From Tricharina praecox (taxonomy: Eukaryota): a DNA stretch of 64,000 nucleotides. The stretch covers positions 124,001 through 188,000 of the forward strand of contig NW_026250407.1 of assembly GCF_024521635.1 (NCBI RefSeq). The letters are read 5' to 3'. The position numbers and the translations under genes were made by a program. This document shows positions 36,193-44,300 of the stretch, piece after piece (the first letter of the stretch is position 1; each line of letters starts with the position of its first letter). The notes below the pieces were generated by a model. That model saw only the letters and a list, made by a program, of their open reading frames with translations. It ran no database searches and was not told the DNA's origin.

Positions 36193-38021
36193 ATGTCAAC
36201 CGAACCACTCATGGGCACTCCCTCTCCCTCCTCCTCCTTCGATGCGAGGCCCGGGCCCGAGTTTACCCTCAGCCTGGGGAAACAGCTTTCGCTGAGTATC
36301 GGAGCAGAAGCACTACATATCCAAGGTGCCTGTCTACCGCCGTCCGGGCTACCCACGGGAGTGAGGAACTGCTAACGTCGGCCTGTAGATACCCACATTC
36401 CGAAATCCGCGTCGCGGTCATGCTGCGGATTCGCCGGCACCTCCGACCTCGGTAAGCTTCTGCGGGACGAAAGTGGACACGGCAACGAGGACTGATCGGT
36501 AGGCGCAGCGAATAGTGTGACGATACCGCTTTACAACCTGCTGTGGGTTGACGTCGGCGATGCTTCGGTCACGATAAAGTTTGCGGCGGAGACGTCGAAG
36601 TCGAGGGTGAAGGCCAGCAGCCTTACGTACCCGTACGATCTACCGGCTCGCTCGGCGGTCGAGGCGTGGACGGAGAGGGTGCTGGGCGCGGCGTACGGCA
36701 GTGCGTGGTTCCTGTCATACTCGAGGTGCGGCGGCAGCTGACAGCCTGTGGTAGCATTGATACAACGGCCACGATACAAGGTCCTGATAAATCCCTTCGG
36801 CGGCCAGGGCAATGCAGCACGGCTGTTCGAGACGGCGTGTAGGCCGATTTTGGAGGCGGCGAATTGTTCTCTCGATGTTCAGACCACGGAATGGACCGGA
36901 CATGCGGTCGATATCGCGCGCGAGATTGATATCGAGGCTTACGATGCGATACTTTGTTGTTCTGGCGATGGTGTTCCGCATGAAGTTTTTAATGGGTTGG
37001 CGAAGAGGGATGATGCTATGAAGGCGCTGAAGACTATCGCCGTGGGTCAGCTACCTGGAGGTTCTGGAAATGCCATGTGCTGGAATCTCACAGGAACGGG
37101 AGACCCGTCTGCGGCAACATTATCGATCATCAAATCCTCACGGAAGTCCATGGACCTTGTTTCGATCAGTCAGGGAGATCAGCGGTTCCTCTCTTTCCTG
37201 TCACAATCGTTTGGAATCATCGCCGAGGTGGATCTTGGGACGGAGGACTTGCGATGGATGGGCGGTGCGCGATTCACTTACGGTCTGATGCAACGAATAT
37301 GGAGGCAAACAGTATACCCATGCGACCTAGCGGTGAAGATCGCGATCGATGATAAAGACACGATCCGGGAACATTACCGGCAACACGAGGCGCAAGGGGT
37401 TCTCCATGGCGAGACGGGGCTTCCCGAGTTGCGGTTCGGCACAGTCAATTCCGAGTTGCCGGACGATTGGGAACTCATCCACCAGCCGAATATGGGGAAC
37501 TTCTACGCTGGGAATGTACGTTGTGGTTTCTTTTATTCTATCCCTTAGCATTCCCGGTGCTTTCGAAGATAAAACGAAGCGGTGATGACTTGCATCGATG
37601 GAGAGGTGGCTAACATGTGCAACATAGATGTCCTGGATGTCGGCCGGCGCGAATTTCTTCCCCGCATCGCTGCCGAACGACGGGATGTTTGATCTCGTCT
37701 GCGTGGCCGGCAATATCAGCCGTCGGCAAGCTTTGAAGATGCTTGTTTCCGTTGAGACCGGAGAACATTTCGAACTGCCACACGTGCGTAATACCGGTTC
37801 AACTCCGTCTCCGGGCACTGACTTTTCCGCGATAAATATAGGTGTCCTACCGAAAGATACTAGGCTACCGGATCATTCCACACAAGCGCCCTGGCGTGAC
37901 AGAGGAGTATATCAGTATAGATGGGGAGCGCATTCCGTTCGAACCGTTTCAGGCTGAGGTCATCAAGGGGTTGGGAACTGTACTGGCCAGAACCGAGCAG
38001 TATCTGGCACCTGGTGTTTGA
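36193..38021 (+). CDS. Sphingoid long-chain base (sphingosine) kinase, Lcb4/Lcb5 family, 6 exons
   Basis: VLINPFGGQG, SGDGVPHEVFNGL, LPGGSGNAM, DLGTEDLRWMGGARF and ISIDGE, with an N-terminal SCCG possible acylation site. TGA at 38019-38021. Confidence 0.94.
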
Positions 38022-39429
38022 GGGGGAGGTGAGGCAAGGGAGGAAGGGCAACTCGAGGAATGGTCCGAGGCAGGGAAATATTCACCGCCATATCTGCACT
38101 TGTGGCAAATACTCAACGGAAACTGTTCTTCACAGTTCTCGAGAATTTTGGTGACGGTATTTAAAGGGTCAAGGTGTTTTATATGGAGACTTATAAGGGC
38201 TTTGAGACATTTTTGAGTCTGGCTGGAGCGATAGAAAGCAATTTGACCTGTTTTTATCGAAGATTTCCGAGTTCCTCACCTGAAATCAATATTCTTGCAT
38301 GCATACTTTGGGACCTTTTACTCTTGGGCTAGATGGCCAAGCACTTCAACTTTTAATCCGATACCTGATCTCTCAGCCAGCTCCTGGAGACCTCAGAAGA
38401 AGCATCTGCATGCATCGTGTACCACCTGGACCTGGATTGCTGTTGTTGGACGGGAAGGAGAAGGGGAAGGGGAAGGAGAAGAGTTTATTTGTTACAATTG
38501 TCGCTGGGACCGTAGTAAGAACGGAATACCCCGAGTTTATGACGATAAATTGACTGTTCGGCATGTTGCATGACCGAGATATCCGACAACAGGAAGCTTC
38601 ACAAACATCTTCAGGAACGTGCATGATGTTCAGTGCCTCCTAACAACAGAAAATTTGACATATATCTCCCGGAACATAAAGAAAGCTTTACATACATCTT
38701 CAGGGATATAAAGAATGCTTCACATATGCATACCCCTCCAGGGACGTGGAGGAAGCTTCACAGTGGTAAGGCACCACCACATCACATGACCACTATTATC
38801 AACCTCACCTCCAGCTCAGTAGCAGTTTTCAAGATATAAAACTTCCAATACCTTGAAGTTCACTGAGTGAACTATACAAATACTACTTCAGTTCATTCAT
38901 ATGGTAAAGGCTTGGCATCCGACCAGTTGCCTCCTCTGATGGGACACTTCCTGTTAGAGATTAGCGTGATCCCATGTGAGAGTACCTTAGCGTAGATTTT
39001 GGCCCGGCATCGGTCTTTTGAGCTCACTTCCCTCTATGGATGTGCCAAGACTGACGCTAGCGTATAGTTAGCGCCTTTTAAGCCCACAACTTTATCCACC
39101 TCACCTTCTTCCCTTTACACATCCTCCCAGCCTTCTCAGCACCATTGACCTTCCGATCACAGTAAGTACCATACTCTCTATTCATCACGATATGTAAACA
39201 TCTACATTGACAGACTTCAATACATACGATCATCTGTACTGATTGCCCTGTGATCTAGAAGTCCTTGATCACCTGTAGCTGCCTTCAAACACAAAAGTCA
39301 CTACAACAAGGTTTGTTTCTTTTTGGCACCTCGAATGTTTCTCCATTCTCAAACCATCCATCGCTTATATAATTGCACTGCTCTGCTTCGAATTTTTGTT
39401 GATAATACCTGCTAACACTTTCTATTCAG

Positions 39430-41022
39430 ATGGCAGAAGTAAGGGCCTTGAAAGCCAGAGACTTGAGCCTCAACCCAACTAATTGCGTACAGAATCACTC
39501 CACCAAAGTTGTGGATGTCAAATACATCGGAGGAGTGAGTATTCATCTAAAATAAGTTGAAGACAATGATGCTGATGACGCGTGTAGCACCCGTGGTACC
39601 GGGTGACATGGAAGGGTTTGGGCCCTTCCTATGACACCTGGGAGCCAACTCGGTGTCTGGGTGTACTAGAGGATGTCGTCAAGCAGTGGAAAGAGAGGTA
39701 TGCATTAAGGACACTTATTTTTGTCGATTATTCTGACTTGTTTTTAGGACTAGGCGCAAGCGCAGAGCATCAAACTCAACTTCCATAACCAAGCGCCTGA
39801 AGTTGCTCAACACCTCCAAGAGAGAGCCCAGCTTAGAAGAAGAAGAAGAAGAAGAGCCCTTTACCATCTGGGATTTAGTGGCCGGCGAAAAACCTCCCTA
39901 CATCATGGTGGACAAAAACAATGTAAGATTCTCTGTCCCTCAATCCCGAAATCCCAACCTACTAACTTGAGGTGAAATAGCAGAAGAAGCCAGGCATGAT
40001 GGCTTCCAAATCCGCCAAGACCAAGCCATACGAGCACAAGGATGAACCGACTCGTCCCGCTGTGCTTGCCAACCCGAAACACCACAAGTTCCTCAAAAAA
40101 TTGGCCAAGATCGAGGGTCCGCAGATCACTCTTGTCAACAGCGTTGACGACGAGCCATGTCCTCCTCTTGACTTTGAGTTCATCAAGGAACTCAGATTGA
40201 CTGATAGTCTGAAGGAGATCGCGGGGGTCACCACGTGGAACAACAACTTTACTGTCGGTTGCAGCTGTCCGGTGACTGGCTGTGTCGACAAGGAAAATTG
40301 TGATTGCCTCGATGAGCTCCCGGAAGAAACCGGCCGCAAGCAGTACGACAAGCATGGCCGCATCACGAGGAATAATCAATATGCCATCTTCGAGTGCAAT
40401 TCCCGTTGCAACTGCGGACCCCAGTGTTCCAGCCGCGTCGTCCAGAAGGGACGCAAGGTCAAGCTGGAAATCTTTAAGACCACAAACAAAGGATGGGGTG
40501 AATACCTACATTCAACTAGTTCACTTCATTGCTATATGATGCTGACTGAACTTAGGCCTTCGCTCTCCCGAGTTCCTCAAGAAGGGCACCTTTGTTGAAC
40601 TTTACCTTGGGGAAGTCATCGGTCCCACAGAGACGAGGCGCCGCGCTGACGCCGGTAATGAGATGAATCTCAGCTACTTGTTCGACCTGGACAAGTTTCA
40701 CGAGCAGGGAGAAGATGTCCTTGCACAGGATTCGTGTTGCACGATAGACGGCCGCGATTGCGGAGCAGCCTCCAGGTTCATCAACCACTCATGCGATCCA
40801 AACTTACTCACGTACGCGGTTACGTCGGAGAGGCAAGATGGCAAGATATACAACCTGGCCCTATTTACGGCTCGCGATATCCAGCCCTACGAGGAACTCA
40901 CCTTCTCGTACACCAGTGAGAGCGCTGCTCCCACCAAGAAGGTTGTTCCCACCAAAGACGACAAGGAATCGAAGCCCTGTCTATGTGGCAGCGACAGCTG
41001 CGTTGGATTCCTCTGGGCTTGA
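39430..41022 (+). CDS. Histone H3K9 methyltransferase of Clr4/Su(var)3-9/DIM-5 type with an N-terminal chromodomain, 439 aa
   Basis: Exons 39430-39438, 39493-39534, 39588-39697, 39748-39922, 39981-40497 and 40556-41022 join in frame. They encode a chromo-like YRVTWKG..DTWEP, a 9-Cys pre-SET, a SET domain (KGWG, YLGEVI, RFINHSCDPN, ELTFSY) and a post-SET CLCGSDSC. Confidence 0.9.
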
Positions 41023-41034
41023 GTGGTCCCGTGT

Positions 41035-41301
41035 TTTTCTGTGGGGTTTTTTCAATGGTGGATCCCTTTCGGCGCTCGAGGTCTCGTGTTTCTTCTGTTT
41101 TTCTCCTGTTTTCTGTGGGCATTTCTTTCAATGGTGGATCTCTTTGGGCGTTCGAGGTCTCGGTTTTCGTGTGGTTTTCTCCTTTTTTCTGTGGGAGTTT
41201 CTTTCAGTGATAGACGCGGAGTTCGGTTGATTGTTCTTTTTCACATCATAGTTAGTGAGTTCGGTTAATTGTTTTTTCTTTCTTCTCATCATAGGTAGTG
41301 A
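41035..41301. repeat. Two adjacent imperfect tandem repeats (about 75 bp x 2.3, then about 40 bp x 2)
   Basis: TTTTCTGTGGG..TTTCAATGGTGGATC..TCGAGGTCTCG repeated, followed by GAGTTCGGTT.ATTGTT..CATCATAG.TAGTGAG repeated. Confidence 0.85.
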
Positions 41302-44300
41302 GATCGACTATGTCCGATCGTCATAAATTTTAGCGCATACATATCCCGCCTCTCTCAGGATGCTACTCGGTGTCTCCATCATGTGATGTCTGGCTCGTTG
41401 GCAGTGCCTTCCTCCCCCATTTCCACTTGTTCCTCTCCCACCTTTCCTGCGTTTGTCCGGCCCATATCCGTGCCCATGAGAAAGCCAAGTGTGGCTGAGC
41501 TACGCTTTTCTTCCGCAAAAAGCTTAGATACCTATCAAAACCTCAACCTTCCGTTTCTTCGTCTTTCCCCTGGCCGCCACCCTGCCCCTCCTCATGCCGG
41601 ACGGTCTCCAAAGAAGTGTTCGCGGGTCTGCTGGGGTTTTGGATCGTATACACCACCTACGGTATAGATGCCGGTCGCCCTCCTCCTCCTCCTCCACCCG
41701 GTCACTCGTGGAGGGAACTTGGCCCGGCCTGGCCAGAGCGTGAACGGGATTTCGGTTGGTGGGTATAGGTACAGTTTACCGGGACACCGCCAGGTTGCTG
41801 GTCGTCAGCGCCTTACAAGCTGTCCACTACCCCCGCTGTCCGCTGCCGATAGTTAAGTGTAATATTTGCTAATGCGTTTGTCTATCCAGGTGCAGGCCTA
41901 GGTGGGCAGTGGGTTCGAGTATTCTCGGTGATGTCCTACCTTAGTACTTTATGTAGCTGATCTGAGCAAAGTCCGCGGCCGGTTATAGGTACTCCAGCTA
42001 CCTAGGTATTCGGTACCTTCGTGGAGGCTGAGGGCTGTTGCATGCGGCTGTCTGATGCTGGACTGTTCATTGCCGTCGAGGCTCGATGCCAGATACCTAC
42101 CCGTTGGAGCTTGAAGCGTTCAAGCTGTGCCCTGGGGCCTGCATGCGATTACGACTCTTAAGTCGTTGGCTTGATGCTGGAATTAGGCCCTCCGCAGTCC
42201 TGCCCGAGCATCAGAATCGGTGGCGGCCTTGCCCCATATTCTGTTCTCCTCGATTACCACCGCGTGATGGGTTATGGATCATGTGCAGCCCGGCGGCTGG
42301 TTCTTTCCCCTGGGCAGTGGAGGCTTGTTCACCCTCCCTAGGTGCATATCTCCCTCCCCATCTCCCTCCCCATCTTCCTCCCCATCTCCCTCCCTATCTC
42401 CCTTCCGTGCACCCCGTACTTCAGCCCTCCCCTCGGGCCGCGATCCGCCGTGCCCCCTTCCCCCGAAATACCCAAGTGAGTTTCTTAGCAGCCTCTACTC
42501 AGCATACATACTCGATCAACCCCCTCACGTCCGCCTTAGGTATTCCCCCTTCGGCATTCCTTACGGTTTCGGAAGCAACAATGCGGTGAAGGGTAACGGA
42601 GCAACCATTGATGCCTCGATGGGATTATTGGCTAACTGGTCGTGGAGCATGAGGATGAGGACATCACTAGATGGAAATCCGTGCATCTCGAGTCGAAGTA
42701 CGGGAATACCTGCACCAATCGATACTCGTCGATCTACCACCACAGAACCGAGCTCGGGACGGTCATGCTGCCCCTCCACCGCCGCCCGGACGATCCCGGC
42801 AGCTCCAAGGACCAAGGCAGCCCACGGGACGGCACACCGAATGCCTAGGTACCAGCCACCGAGCCTCCGCTTTCTATTCTAGGCACATTCCGTCACGACG
42901 ACCCCGCAGAAGTAAGGAGGTGGTGGTGGTGGCGGTGCCGGCGGAGGTGGTGGCGGATACCTATCGTACCTGGTGCAAAGGGGCACGTGGAAATGCCCCC
43001 CACCCCCGCATCATCATGGCGACGGCAAATGGGTTAACGCATACCGTACCTATCGTCTAGGTAGGTGGGTAGGTGGGTAGGTACTCGCGGAATATGTATC
43101 GGGATATGTGGAATATGTAGGTACATACCGGCGGTCACTATTTGCATTCCAGCCACATTTCGTCAGTCAACTGGAATTGGAACTGGAACCGCACATCCAA
43201 GCAAGGAGGTTGTGCGCCGATGTGCACTGTGGCTGGATATCTATCCTCTGCCCCCAAAAGCTGACGTGAAAGATGTACATACTGGGTCCGGAGTATGGAG
43301 GGCCAGCCATCGTGTTGTTGTGTTTACGGTACTTTTTACAGCCAGCCATCAGCACCCGGTGGCCGATGAACCAGTAGGTAAGTAGGTATTCTGACGGAGC
43401 AAAAACACGGCGATACCGACGACATATCTACACCGGTGGAAAGCCCGTTTTCCGGGATGCCATCGTAACTATCCCCAGCCGACTCCAGTGTCTACATGAA
43501 GGAAACCTCGGTATATAGTTTGAGGCGTGATGGGGCGACTGAGGATCAGTTACGGTGGCTACTATTCAACAACCGTTAGGGCCGAGCAGAGCCATGATAG
43601 TACAGTACTTCGCCAAATGTTATTACAGTACTGGTCACTTGTTGACTTCCGGCTTCAACCATAGGTACCCCGGGGACACCGATGACAGCAGGACAGTCCT
43701 ACCGACAGGTGGGGTGGTATGTACGGTACAGTGTATCACTCGTGGCACGGGATTAGCGTACCTAGACTCCAGAGTATCAGCTGCACAGCCAGAACCGGTC
43801 GAATGCAAGATGATGAAACACCACACGGTCCACACCAATGTCTCGTCCGCACTGCACATTGCGCAATACAAGCCGCTTGATATGAAATTGGAACGATCGA
43901 TTCCGTGCTTAAGTTGTGCTCCTCATATGCTACGTGCGTCAGGTTCCCGGGGTCCGGCAGAATTTAGGACCAGCTGGTCGATCACCAAAGCCGAGGGAAG
44001 AATCACTAATCACGATGCTTCCGCTATGATGTACCGTATGTACGCAATGGCTGGCAATGGGCTGCCGTGGGCGGCGTCATCGATTCTCACTCACGATGAT
44101 TCACAGCACATGACATGATACATGAAGACTTCCACGGATGCGCCCCGCCCCGCTCCGCCCCACCGCCCCCGCCTCCGCGCATGAAATGTGCTGTTTGAGC
44201 GAGCGAAGTGGGCCCGAATCCCGAATGACGAAAGGCGGGGGGCAGGTTGCGGTATTCATGCATGGAGTACATGATAGGTGCCTTAAGGCTGGAGCTCCCT

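What the first reader, a model, noticed from the sequence alone, without database searches (positions are those of the whole stretch)
39430..41022. Clr4/Su(var)3-9-type H3K9 methyltransferase with a chromodomain whose aromatic cage looks degenerate
Seen: three short 5' exons that the ORF track fragments splice in frame to give MAENHSTKVVDVKYIGGHPWYRVTWKGLGPSYDTWEP, ahead of an intact pre-SET/SET/post-SET. Established: S. pombe Clr4 and animal SUV39H carry an N-terminal chromodomain for read-write spreading, whereas Neurospora DIM-5 lacks one. Methyl-lysine binding needs three aromatic residues (the Y/F of E[YF]EVE and the W and Y/F of KWKG[YF]). Seen: only the Trp is kept here; the other two positions read His and Leu. 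LALFTARDI has Phe at the position matching the DIM-5 F/Y switch, which suggests a trimethylase. Inference: this is either an intermediate in chromodomain loss or a divergent paralog whose chromodomain binds something else, such as nucleic acid or a partner protein.
Basis: partly seen in the sequence, partly recalled or inferred. Interest (0 to 1): 0.7.

Follow-up and report, generated by a model that had tools for sequence, protein, structure and literature searches.

The report
H3K9 methyltransferase with cage-less chromodomain
This is a cup fungus's only gene for the enzyme that writes the H3K9 silencing mark; it still carries a folded "reader" domain, but that domain has lost two of the three residues normally needed to read the mark, which suggests it is kept for another job.

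Summary
The gene is real. RNA contigs from 3 studies support the six-exon, 439-aa model, including the 9-nt first exon. Pfam, AlphaFold and fold search confirm chromodomain + pre-SET/SET/post-SET. The cage is degenerate: W25 kept, L28 at the third position (aromatic in 87 of 89 rows), no Tyr/Phe/Trp at the first. Two corrections: that first column aligns to Asn4, with His5 one residue off; the Phe/Tyr switch is F401, not the Phe of LALFTARDI. It is not a paralog: single copy, and beside lcb4 as in relatives. The chromodomain is inherited: Morchella, Rhizina, Terfezia and Orbiliomycetes keep the full cage. A syntenic relative shares the Leu, and the domain appears to be under purifying selection. 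HP1 in this genome has an intact cage. Best reading: an ordinary H3K9 methyltransferase whose chromodomain is kept for a methyl-independent role; binding is untested. Dothideomycete orthologues, described in print as lacking a chromodomain, carry a similar cage-less one.

The parts
39128..39161 (+). 5' UTR exon (5' end as far as RNA contigs reach); no ATG
39259..39310 (+). second 5' UTR exon; present in X1 and X2, skipped in X3; holds an in-frame stop and no ATG
39430..39438 (+). 9-nt first coding exon (Met-Ala-Glu); ends at the same phase-0 intron that follows the cage Tyr-Glu in relatives L099 and L064
   Evidence: (table 5c)
39493..39534 (+). coding exon 2, residues 4-17; first chromodomain strand; Asn4 (39493-39495) at cage column 1, His5 next to it
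39588..39697 (+). coding exon 3, residues 18-54; chromodomain core; Trp25 (39609-39611) kept, Leu28 (39618-39620) at cage column 3
39687..39766 (+). basic end of the chromodomain helix, residues 51-60 (spans intron 3); matches the basic stretch of the Clr4 chromodomain
39748..39922 (+). coding exon 4; disordered hinge with a conserved short motif at 39857-39895 (residues 91-103)
39981..40497 (+). coding exon 5; N-SET, pre-SET (40110-40436) with all nine Cys, Phe202 matching Clr4 F256, start of SET
40556..41022 (+). coding exon 6; SET and post-SET; NHSC motif, switch Phe401 (40903-40905), catalytic Tyr403 (40909-40911), CxC-x4-C (40978-41001), stop
41023..41347 (+). 3' UTR as far as RNA contigs reach; holds a 76-nt unit in 2.3 copies
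36496..37957 (+). upstream neighbour, lcb4-type sphingoid kinase (DAGK_cat); approximate bounds; synteny marker

Best explanation
This is the single Clr4/KMT1/DIM-5 orthologue of a Pyronemataceae fungus. Shown: the gene is spliced and transcribed, single-copy, syntenic and catalytically intact in sequence, and its N-terminus folds as a chromodomain with only the central Trp of the cage. Inferred from the family: it di/tri-methylates H3K9 on repeats, probably within a Cul4-DDB1 complex. Inferred: the chromodomain no longer tells methylated from unmethylated K9, so direct read-write feedback through this enzyme is lost or weak and HP1 reads the mark. Inferred: the domain is kept for a methyl-independent role already reported for the Clr4 and SUV39H1 chromodomains, namely contact with the ligase complex, with H3K14-ubiquitin and the nucleosome, damping of the SET domain, or nucleic-acid binding through the basic helix. 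I cannot rank these four from sequence.
For: Splicing. Single copy. Synteny with lcb4: 18 of 69 loci, of which 33 hold 4 kb or more upstream; many are repeats of one organism. Catalytic part closest to Clr4: E 3e-72, Z 28.9. Cage column 3 is aromatic in 87 of 89 rows; the two exceptions are this protein and L052. One such change (Y67A) removed methyl preference from SUV39H1 and left RNA binding (PMC5538823, passages). Constraint against L052 over residues 8-52: second codon positions differ at 12 of 45, third at 25 of 45 (p=0.005); the hinge outside its motif differs at 30 of 58 second positions (p=0.009); the catalytic part at 64 of 267. HP1 with Tyr-Trp-Tyr and a chromoshadow-like C-terminus is in the genome. 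Methyl-independent roles of the Clr4 chromodomain: bioRxiv 10.1101/2025.08.28.672867, passages. The basic helix end is kept. The same Trp-only state recurs in Dothideomycete orthologues.
Against: No binding or activity was measured. The selection test rests on one informative pair; with L050 only 18 codons overlap and the test is not significant (p=0.09 to 0.38). Four-fold sites differ at 57% in this gene but at 29-38% in two neighbours, so against the neighbours' baseline the chromodomain's 27% is not clearly low; the whole gene evolves fast and L052 is a long branch. Pyronema and the Sphaerosporella-like protein are more eroded, with no Pfam chromo hit, and the Pyronema domain is acidic (net -2), which fits decay and speaks against a shared nucleic-acid role. 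His5, or a Phe at the same place in L052, could rebuild part of a pocket.
Confidence: 0.55

Rival explanations
1. Plain decay. The chromodomain lost its function when the cage went and is drifting towards deletion, as happened earlier on other fungal lines; the remaining conservation is lag or the need to stay soluble.
For: A graded series exists among relatives: 37-42 bits here and in L052, 9.6 in Pyronema, 4.2 in the Sphaerosporella-like protein on my chromodomain profile. L091 has lost the first Tyr by a 9-nt deletion against L099. The whole gene evolves fast.
Against: No insertion or deletion in exon 3 between this gene and L052 (110 nt each). Second-position change is half that of the hinge and close to that of the catalytic part. 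A cage-less version is conserved across 13 Dothideomycete-type proteins.
Confidence: 0.22
2. The domain still reads methylated H3K9, or another methyl mark, more weakly or with changed preference, using Trp25, a shifted His5 (Phe in L052) and the acidic residue of the TWEP motif.
For: Fold and Trp25 are intact. Aligned ranges against HP1 and Chp1 allow His5 at the first cage place. L052 has Phe and Pyronema has His at the same offset.
Against: The third cage place is Leu in both clade members, and loss of this one Tyr abolished methyl preference in SUV39H1 (PMC5538823). Residues 1-4 are predicted disordered.
Confidence: 0.19
3. A divergent paralog or a mis-spliced model; the real Clr4 or the real first exon lies elsewhere.
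For: Rhizina has several paralogs. L050 is closer to this gene than the syntenic L052 and has no known flanks. The own-genome search scores only its best candidates and works exon by exon.
Against: One pre-SET match, one SUV39-type locus and one DNA match in the genome. RNA contigs fix the junctions and leaders.
Confidence: 0.02
4. The chromodomain was picked up recently from one of the many chromodomain-bearing retrotransposons in this genome.
For: The genome gave 125 chromo matches, most in repeated long frames.
Against: The first two introns sit at the same places and phase as in the chromodomains of L099 and L064. Orthologues across Pezizomycetes, Orbiliomycetes, Taphrinomycotina and early fungi carry the domain.
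Confidence: 0.02

Closest known systems
Schizosaccharomyces pombe Clr4
   Same: Chromodomain-hinge-pre-SET/SET/post-SET order; best solved match of the catalytic part; W31, F256, F449 and Y451 equivalents kept; basic helix end kept.
   Different: Y8 and Y34 columns read Asn and Leu; F310 and F427 of the ubiquitin-binding surface are not kept; shorter hinge.
Human/mouse SUV39H1
   Same: Chromodomain fold (Z 8.1, rmsd 2.3, 62 aligned) and SUV39-type SET domain.
   Different: Of F43, W64 and Y67 (PMC5538823) only the W64 equivalent remains; the natural state resembles a double cage mutant.
Neurospora crassa DIM-5
   Same: Same SET family (E 1.2e-45, Z 25.1); Phe at the switch; relatives without a chromodomain match also sit beside lcb4.
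   Different: DIM-5 has no chromodomain (PMC10135481); this gene belongs to the Pezizomycete branch, which kept it.
Clr4 orthologues of Morchella, Rhizina, Terfezia and Orbiliomycetes
   Same: Same architecture; shared intron positions with the Terfezia-like locus L099.
   Different: Most keep all three aromatic residues; the Arthrobotrys oligospora domain is mentioned in PMC9692433.
Dothideomycete KMT1 (Hortaea, Aureobasidium, Zasmidium and others)
   Same: N-terminal chromo fold with the Trp kept and cage columns 1 and 3 lost.
   Different: More diverged (SWH for TWEP, longer loop), mostly under the Pfam cut-off; a separate branch of the SET tree.

Membership tests
SUV39/Clr4/KMT1 H3K9 methyltransferases | Pre-SET with nine Cys, SET, post-SET CxC-x4-C | tested here: met
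SUV39/Clr4/KMT1 H3K9 methyltransferases | Catalytic motifs GxG, NHSC, ELxF-x-Y | tested here: met
   G283-W-G285, N361-H-S-C, F401, Y403
SUV39/Clr4/KMT1 H3K9 methyltransferases | Groups with Clr4/DIM-5 by sequence, structure and tree | tested here: met
   the tree held only SUV39-type proteins, so it places the gene within the family and the searches give the family
SUV39/Clr4/KMT1 H3K9 methyltransferases | Methylates H3K9 | not testable with these tools
   inferred from sequence
Chromodomain (Pfam PF00385) | Profile score over the curated cut-off | tested here: met
   28.7 bits against 25.1
Chromodomain (Pfam PF00385) | Three-strand sheet plus C-terminal helix | tested here: met
   (Z 8.8 Rhino, 8.1 SUV39H1)
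HP1-type methyl-lysine reader chromodomains | Three aromatic cage residues | tested here: not met
   Asn4 (or His5), Trp25, Leu28
HP1-type methyl-lysine reader chromodomains | Methyl-dependent binding to H3K9 | not testable with these tools
   no assay; modified peptides cannot be modelled here
DIM-5-type (chromodomain-less) KMT1 | No N-terminal chromodomain | tested here: not met
   chromodomain exons are in the spliced RNA
CLRC/DCDC Cul4 complex subunit | Partners Cul4, DDB1/Rik1, Raf1/DIM-9, Raf2/DIM-7 present and bound | not tested
   not searched in G000

The most novel reading that the evidence does not exclude
Filamentous ascomycetes did not simply lose the Clr4 chromodomain at their base. 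Basal classes kept it whole, and at least two distant lines (this Pyronemataceae clade and the Dothideomycetes) independently dropped the same two cage residues while keeping the fold under selection. The cage-less chromodomain is then a conserved functional module of fungal H3K9 methyltransferases, a natural separation-of-function form that keeps the complex, ubiquitin or nucleic-acid role and discards H3K9me read-write feedback.
Probability: 0.4. Interest if true: 0.72.

Novelty: new variant of a known kind. Interest (0 to 1): 0.5.

Why it matters
Read-write coupling through the Clr4 chromodomain is the standard model for spreading and inheriting H3K9 heterochromatin. How filamentous fungi do this without it is posed as an open question (PMC9720130). 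Several papers state that the domain is absent from filamentous ascomycetes or was lost at the base of Saccharomycotina and Pezizomycotina (PMC9963178, PMC9720130, PMC3945186, PMC2474616). This gene and its relatives show the domain whole, half-broken and nearly erased within one family, and cage-less but conserved in Dothideomycetes. That offers natural variants for domain swaps into fission yeast Clr4, to separate mark reading from the domain's other roles. The enzyme itself is an ordinary family member.

Tried and rejected
Upstream coding exon that restores the first aromatic residue: rejected; neither RNA-supported leader has an ATG. Paralog: rejected. F388 as the switch: rejected. Search for short proteins matching residues 1-112: 8 candidates, none significant. 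L050, the closest relative, starts at Trp35 and says nothing on the cage. Predicted contact between the chromodomain and its own catalytic part: no verdict. NG86 dS values were near saturation, so codon-position counts were used instead; intron identity was too close to the shuffled control (32% against 44% differing) to serve as a baseline. Foldseek on the full model listed only SET domains among the rows shown. The Atlas feature search gave chromodomain clusters at 0.82 or less, a lead only. Earlier findings of the scan: none. Literature: 7 searches; of those aimed at novelty none listed a paper describing a cage-less chromodomain in a fungal Clr4/KMT1. Subscription journals are mostly not held, and file 2 of the PMC9963178 supplements, a PDF of pictures that may hold the domain figure, could not be read.

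Full report
Observation. The six exons named in the observation check join through GT..AG introns of 50-58 nt into 439 codons. The product is identical to P0001, which NCBI names an H3K9 methyltransferase of Tricharina praecox (Pezizomycetes, Pyronemataceae). I laid 3 of the 5 runs listed. Contigs of X1 and X2 cross all five coding introns and X3 crosses the first three; each has the 9 letters of exon 1 between its joints, with no other letters. X1 and X2 are RNA by guess, but they are spliced. Two 5' UTR exons exist, one skipped in X3, and neither leader has an ATG.

Domains. Pfam gives Chromo 8-54 (28.7 bits, cut-off 25.1), Pre-SET 156-264 and SET 283-403. Residues 1-62 match MPP8, Clr4 and HP1 chromodomains among solved structures (E 5e-6 to 6e-5 for the best five). 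AlphaFold builds three strands and a helix at block pLDDT 86-91 for residues 11-60, with residues 1-4 and 65-119 under 50. That model matches the Rhino and SUV39H1 chromodomains at Z 8.8 and 8.1 and the Clr4 catalytic domain at Z 28.9. All pre-SET and post-SET cysteines, GWG, NHSC and Y403 are present. The Phe/Tyr switch lies two residues before the catalytic Tyr in G9a (F1152, Y1154; PMC2797608, passages; DIM-5 F281 in PMC3356298, passages). F401 fits a di- or tri-methylase.

The cage. SUV39H1 uses F43, W64 and Y67 (PMC5538823, passages). W25 and L28 take the second and third places without gaps. I built a profile from 32 intact chromodomains of the hits and tallied every SET-bearing row that scored 30 bits or more: 89 rows, which include the seeds, near-duplicates and two splice readings of L064. 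Column 2 is Trp in 89 of 89. Column 3 is aromatic in 87 of 89, the exceptions being this protein and L052. Column 1 is aromatic in 69 of the 73 rows with an aligned residue; 16 rows, this one among them, had none aligned. The threshold left out the more eroded domains discussed below. By multiple alignment column 1 is Asn4, and the structural range against SUV39H1 agrees. Exon structure gives a third view: in L099 and L064 a phase-0 intron follows the cage Tyr-Glu; here it follows Met-Ala-Glu and in L052 Met-Thr-Asp, and exon 2 starts 2 to 3 codons earlier. On that view the Tyr codon became Ala or Thr and the acceptor moved upstream (inference). No reading puts Tyr, Phe or Trp there.

Orthologue, not paralog. 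The genome gave one Pre-SET match, one strong SUV39-type locus among 13 SET matches, and one full DNA match; these searches are lower bounds. An lcb4-type kinase lies upstream and upstream of the match in 18 of 69 metagenome loci, 33 of which hold 4 kb or more upstream; many are the same organism repeated. They include loci whose match covers only the catalytic part, so the synteny reaches beyond chromodomain-bearing forms.

Distribution. Named hits from Morchella, Rhizina, Terfezia, Orbiliomycetes, Schizosaccharomyces, Pneumocystis, Saitoella and early fungi carry the chromodomain, mostly with a full cage. Within Pyronemataceae, Trichophaea and Wilcoxina keep columns 2 and 3; their models lack the first exons. 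L064, similar to them, reads Tyr at column 1 with one acceptor and is disrupted with the other; branch-point spacing does not decide. Pyronema and a Sphaerosporella-like transcript product are more eroded: 9.6 and 4.2 bits, no Pfam hit, profile-profile probability 94% and 44%. A FastTree on 278 catalytic columns of 38 proteins groups this gene with L050 and L052 (support 1.0) and Pyronema with Trichophaea and Wilcoxina (0.94); deeper nodes are weak. This suggests more than one erosion in the family, not one slide.

Is the domain still constrained? L052 (with near-identical L051 and L053) is a syntenic relative with the same exon layout and the same Leu. Over residues 8-52 it is identical at 21 of 45 residues. 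Second codon positions differ at 12 of 45 and third at 25 of 45 (Fisher p=0.005); the hinge without its motif differs at 30 of 58 second positions (p=0.009) and the catalytic part at 64 of 267. Against this: four-fold sites differ at 52 of 91 in this gene but 40 of 105 and 28 of 97 in two neighbours, so the gene is fast or the pair is not strictly orthologous. With L050 only 18 codons overlap and nothing is significant. I take this as moderate evidence of purifying selection.

Context in the genome. An HP1 gene at G000:C13:437953-438954 has Tyr-Trp-Tyr and a chromoshadow-like C-terminus (model from sequence alone). Cytosine methyltransferase matches lie at three loci.

Mechanism. In SUV39H1 the Y67A change removed methyl preference and left RNA binding, which depends on basic residues of the chromodomain helix, as in Clr4 and Chp1 (PMC5538823, passages). 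That basic end is kept here (net charge +6 over residues 1-62, Clr4 +4 over 1-69), though it could also be a nuclear signal (my inference). A preprint reports that the Clr4 chromodomain with the hinge is needed to bind Raf1, that it contacts ubiquitin and the autoregulatory loop, and that it damps catalysis (10.1101/2025.08.28.672867, passages). A 2026 paper calls H3K9me3 binding weak and stresses H3K14ub feedback (PMC13079825, passages). Of the three Phe of the Clr4 ubiquitin surface (PMC8443253, passages) only F256 is matched here (F202). These give ready reasons to keep a cage-less fold. None was tested on this protein.

A wider pattern. Scanning the hits showed an N-terminal remnant in KMT1 proteins named from Hortaea, Aureobasidium, Zasmidium, Meristemomyces and Zymoseptoria and in unnamed relatives (class checked for Hortaea and Aureobasidium; recalled for the others). 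Pfam Chromo appears in 9 of 10 tested (E 6e-6 to 0.18, one over the cut-off) and in 0 of 4 other leotiomyceta-type controls. Their profile aligns to the canonical one at 95% probability. A model of P0164, poor overall (mean pLDDT 49) but 57-81 over residues 21-80, has chromo topology, and its top matches are chromo-fold domains at Z up to 6.5, a middling score. They keep the Trp and lack columns 1 and 3.

Against what is known. Passages read in PMC2474616, PMC3945186 and PMC9720130 say filamentous ascomycete enzymes have no chromodomain, and PMC9963178 places a loss in the common ancestor of Saccharomycotina and Pezizomycotina. The readable supplements of the last hold no Tuber, Pyronema, Arthrobotrys or Morchella. 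PMC9692433 does note a chromodomain in the Arthrobotrys oligospora protein, and Pfam annotations already mark it in Pezizomycete proteins, so retention itself is not wholly new. I found no description of the cage-less form in searches; the library lacks most subscription journals. PMC10135481 and PMC8105982 were read as passages; all other listed papers were seen as search listings only.

Verdict. A real, expressed, single-copy Clr4 orthologue with a folded chromodomain that has lost two of three cage residues. New variant of a known kind. Interest 0.5: the enzyme is ordinary and function is untested, but the variant recurs, appears constrained, corrects a published distribution and sets up a direct test.

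Noticed in passing
P0058, P0063, P0067, P0004, P0052, P0091 and others; loci L055, L059-L061, L066, L070, L077: Dothideomycete-type KMT1 proteins carry a conserved N-terminal chromodomain without cage columns 1 and 3, although the literature read says they have none.
   Followed up: yes
window 39857-39895: Short hinge motif (residues 91-103) conserved in L050 and L052 and loosely in other Pyronemataceae, inside an otherwise fast, disordered linker; a candidate partner-binding motif.
   Followed up: partly
G000:C26:15671-17300 (L119, L132), minus strand: A second chromoshadow-bearing gene, preceded by three degenerate chromo-like repeats that keep the Trp and TWE motif; it is not the canonical HP1.
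   Followed up: partly
G000:C61:13885-14430 (L002): A 707-aa frame with up to five tandem chromodomains, the later ones eroded.
   Followed up: no
G000, many contigs: 125 chromo matches, most in two repeated families with identical scores and open frames of about 1270 and 1440 aa; looks like recently spread retrotransposons with little point-mutation damage. Observed only.
   Followed up: no
L091:5364-5390 against L099:3716-3751: A Terfezia-like relative has lost the first cage Tyr by a 9-nt deletion in exon 1 while keeping the other two.
   Followed up: partly
L052:5831-7411: The syntenic relative's lcb4 is 91% identical to the window's but its Clr4 catalytic part only 55%; this gene evolves far faster than its neighbours.
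   Followed up: partly
P0010, P0011, P0014, P0041: Rhizina undulata has at least four Clr4-like models, one with PF16761 in place of the chromodomain.
   Followed up: no
window 39259-39310: Alternatively spliced 5' UTR exon; the same leader layout appears in L052.
   Followed up: partly
window 41035-41206 and 38648-38726: A 76-nt unit in 2.3 copies in the 3' UTR and a 32-nt unit in 2.5 copies upstream.
   Followed up: no
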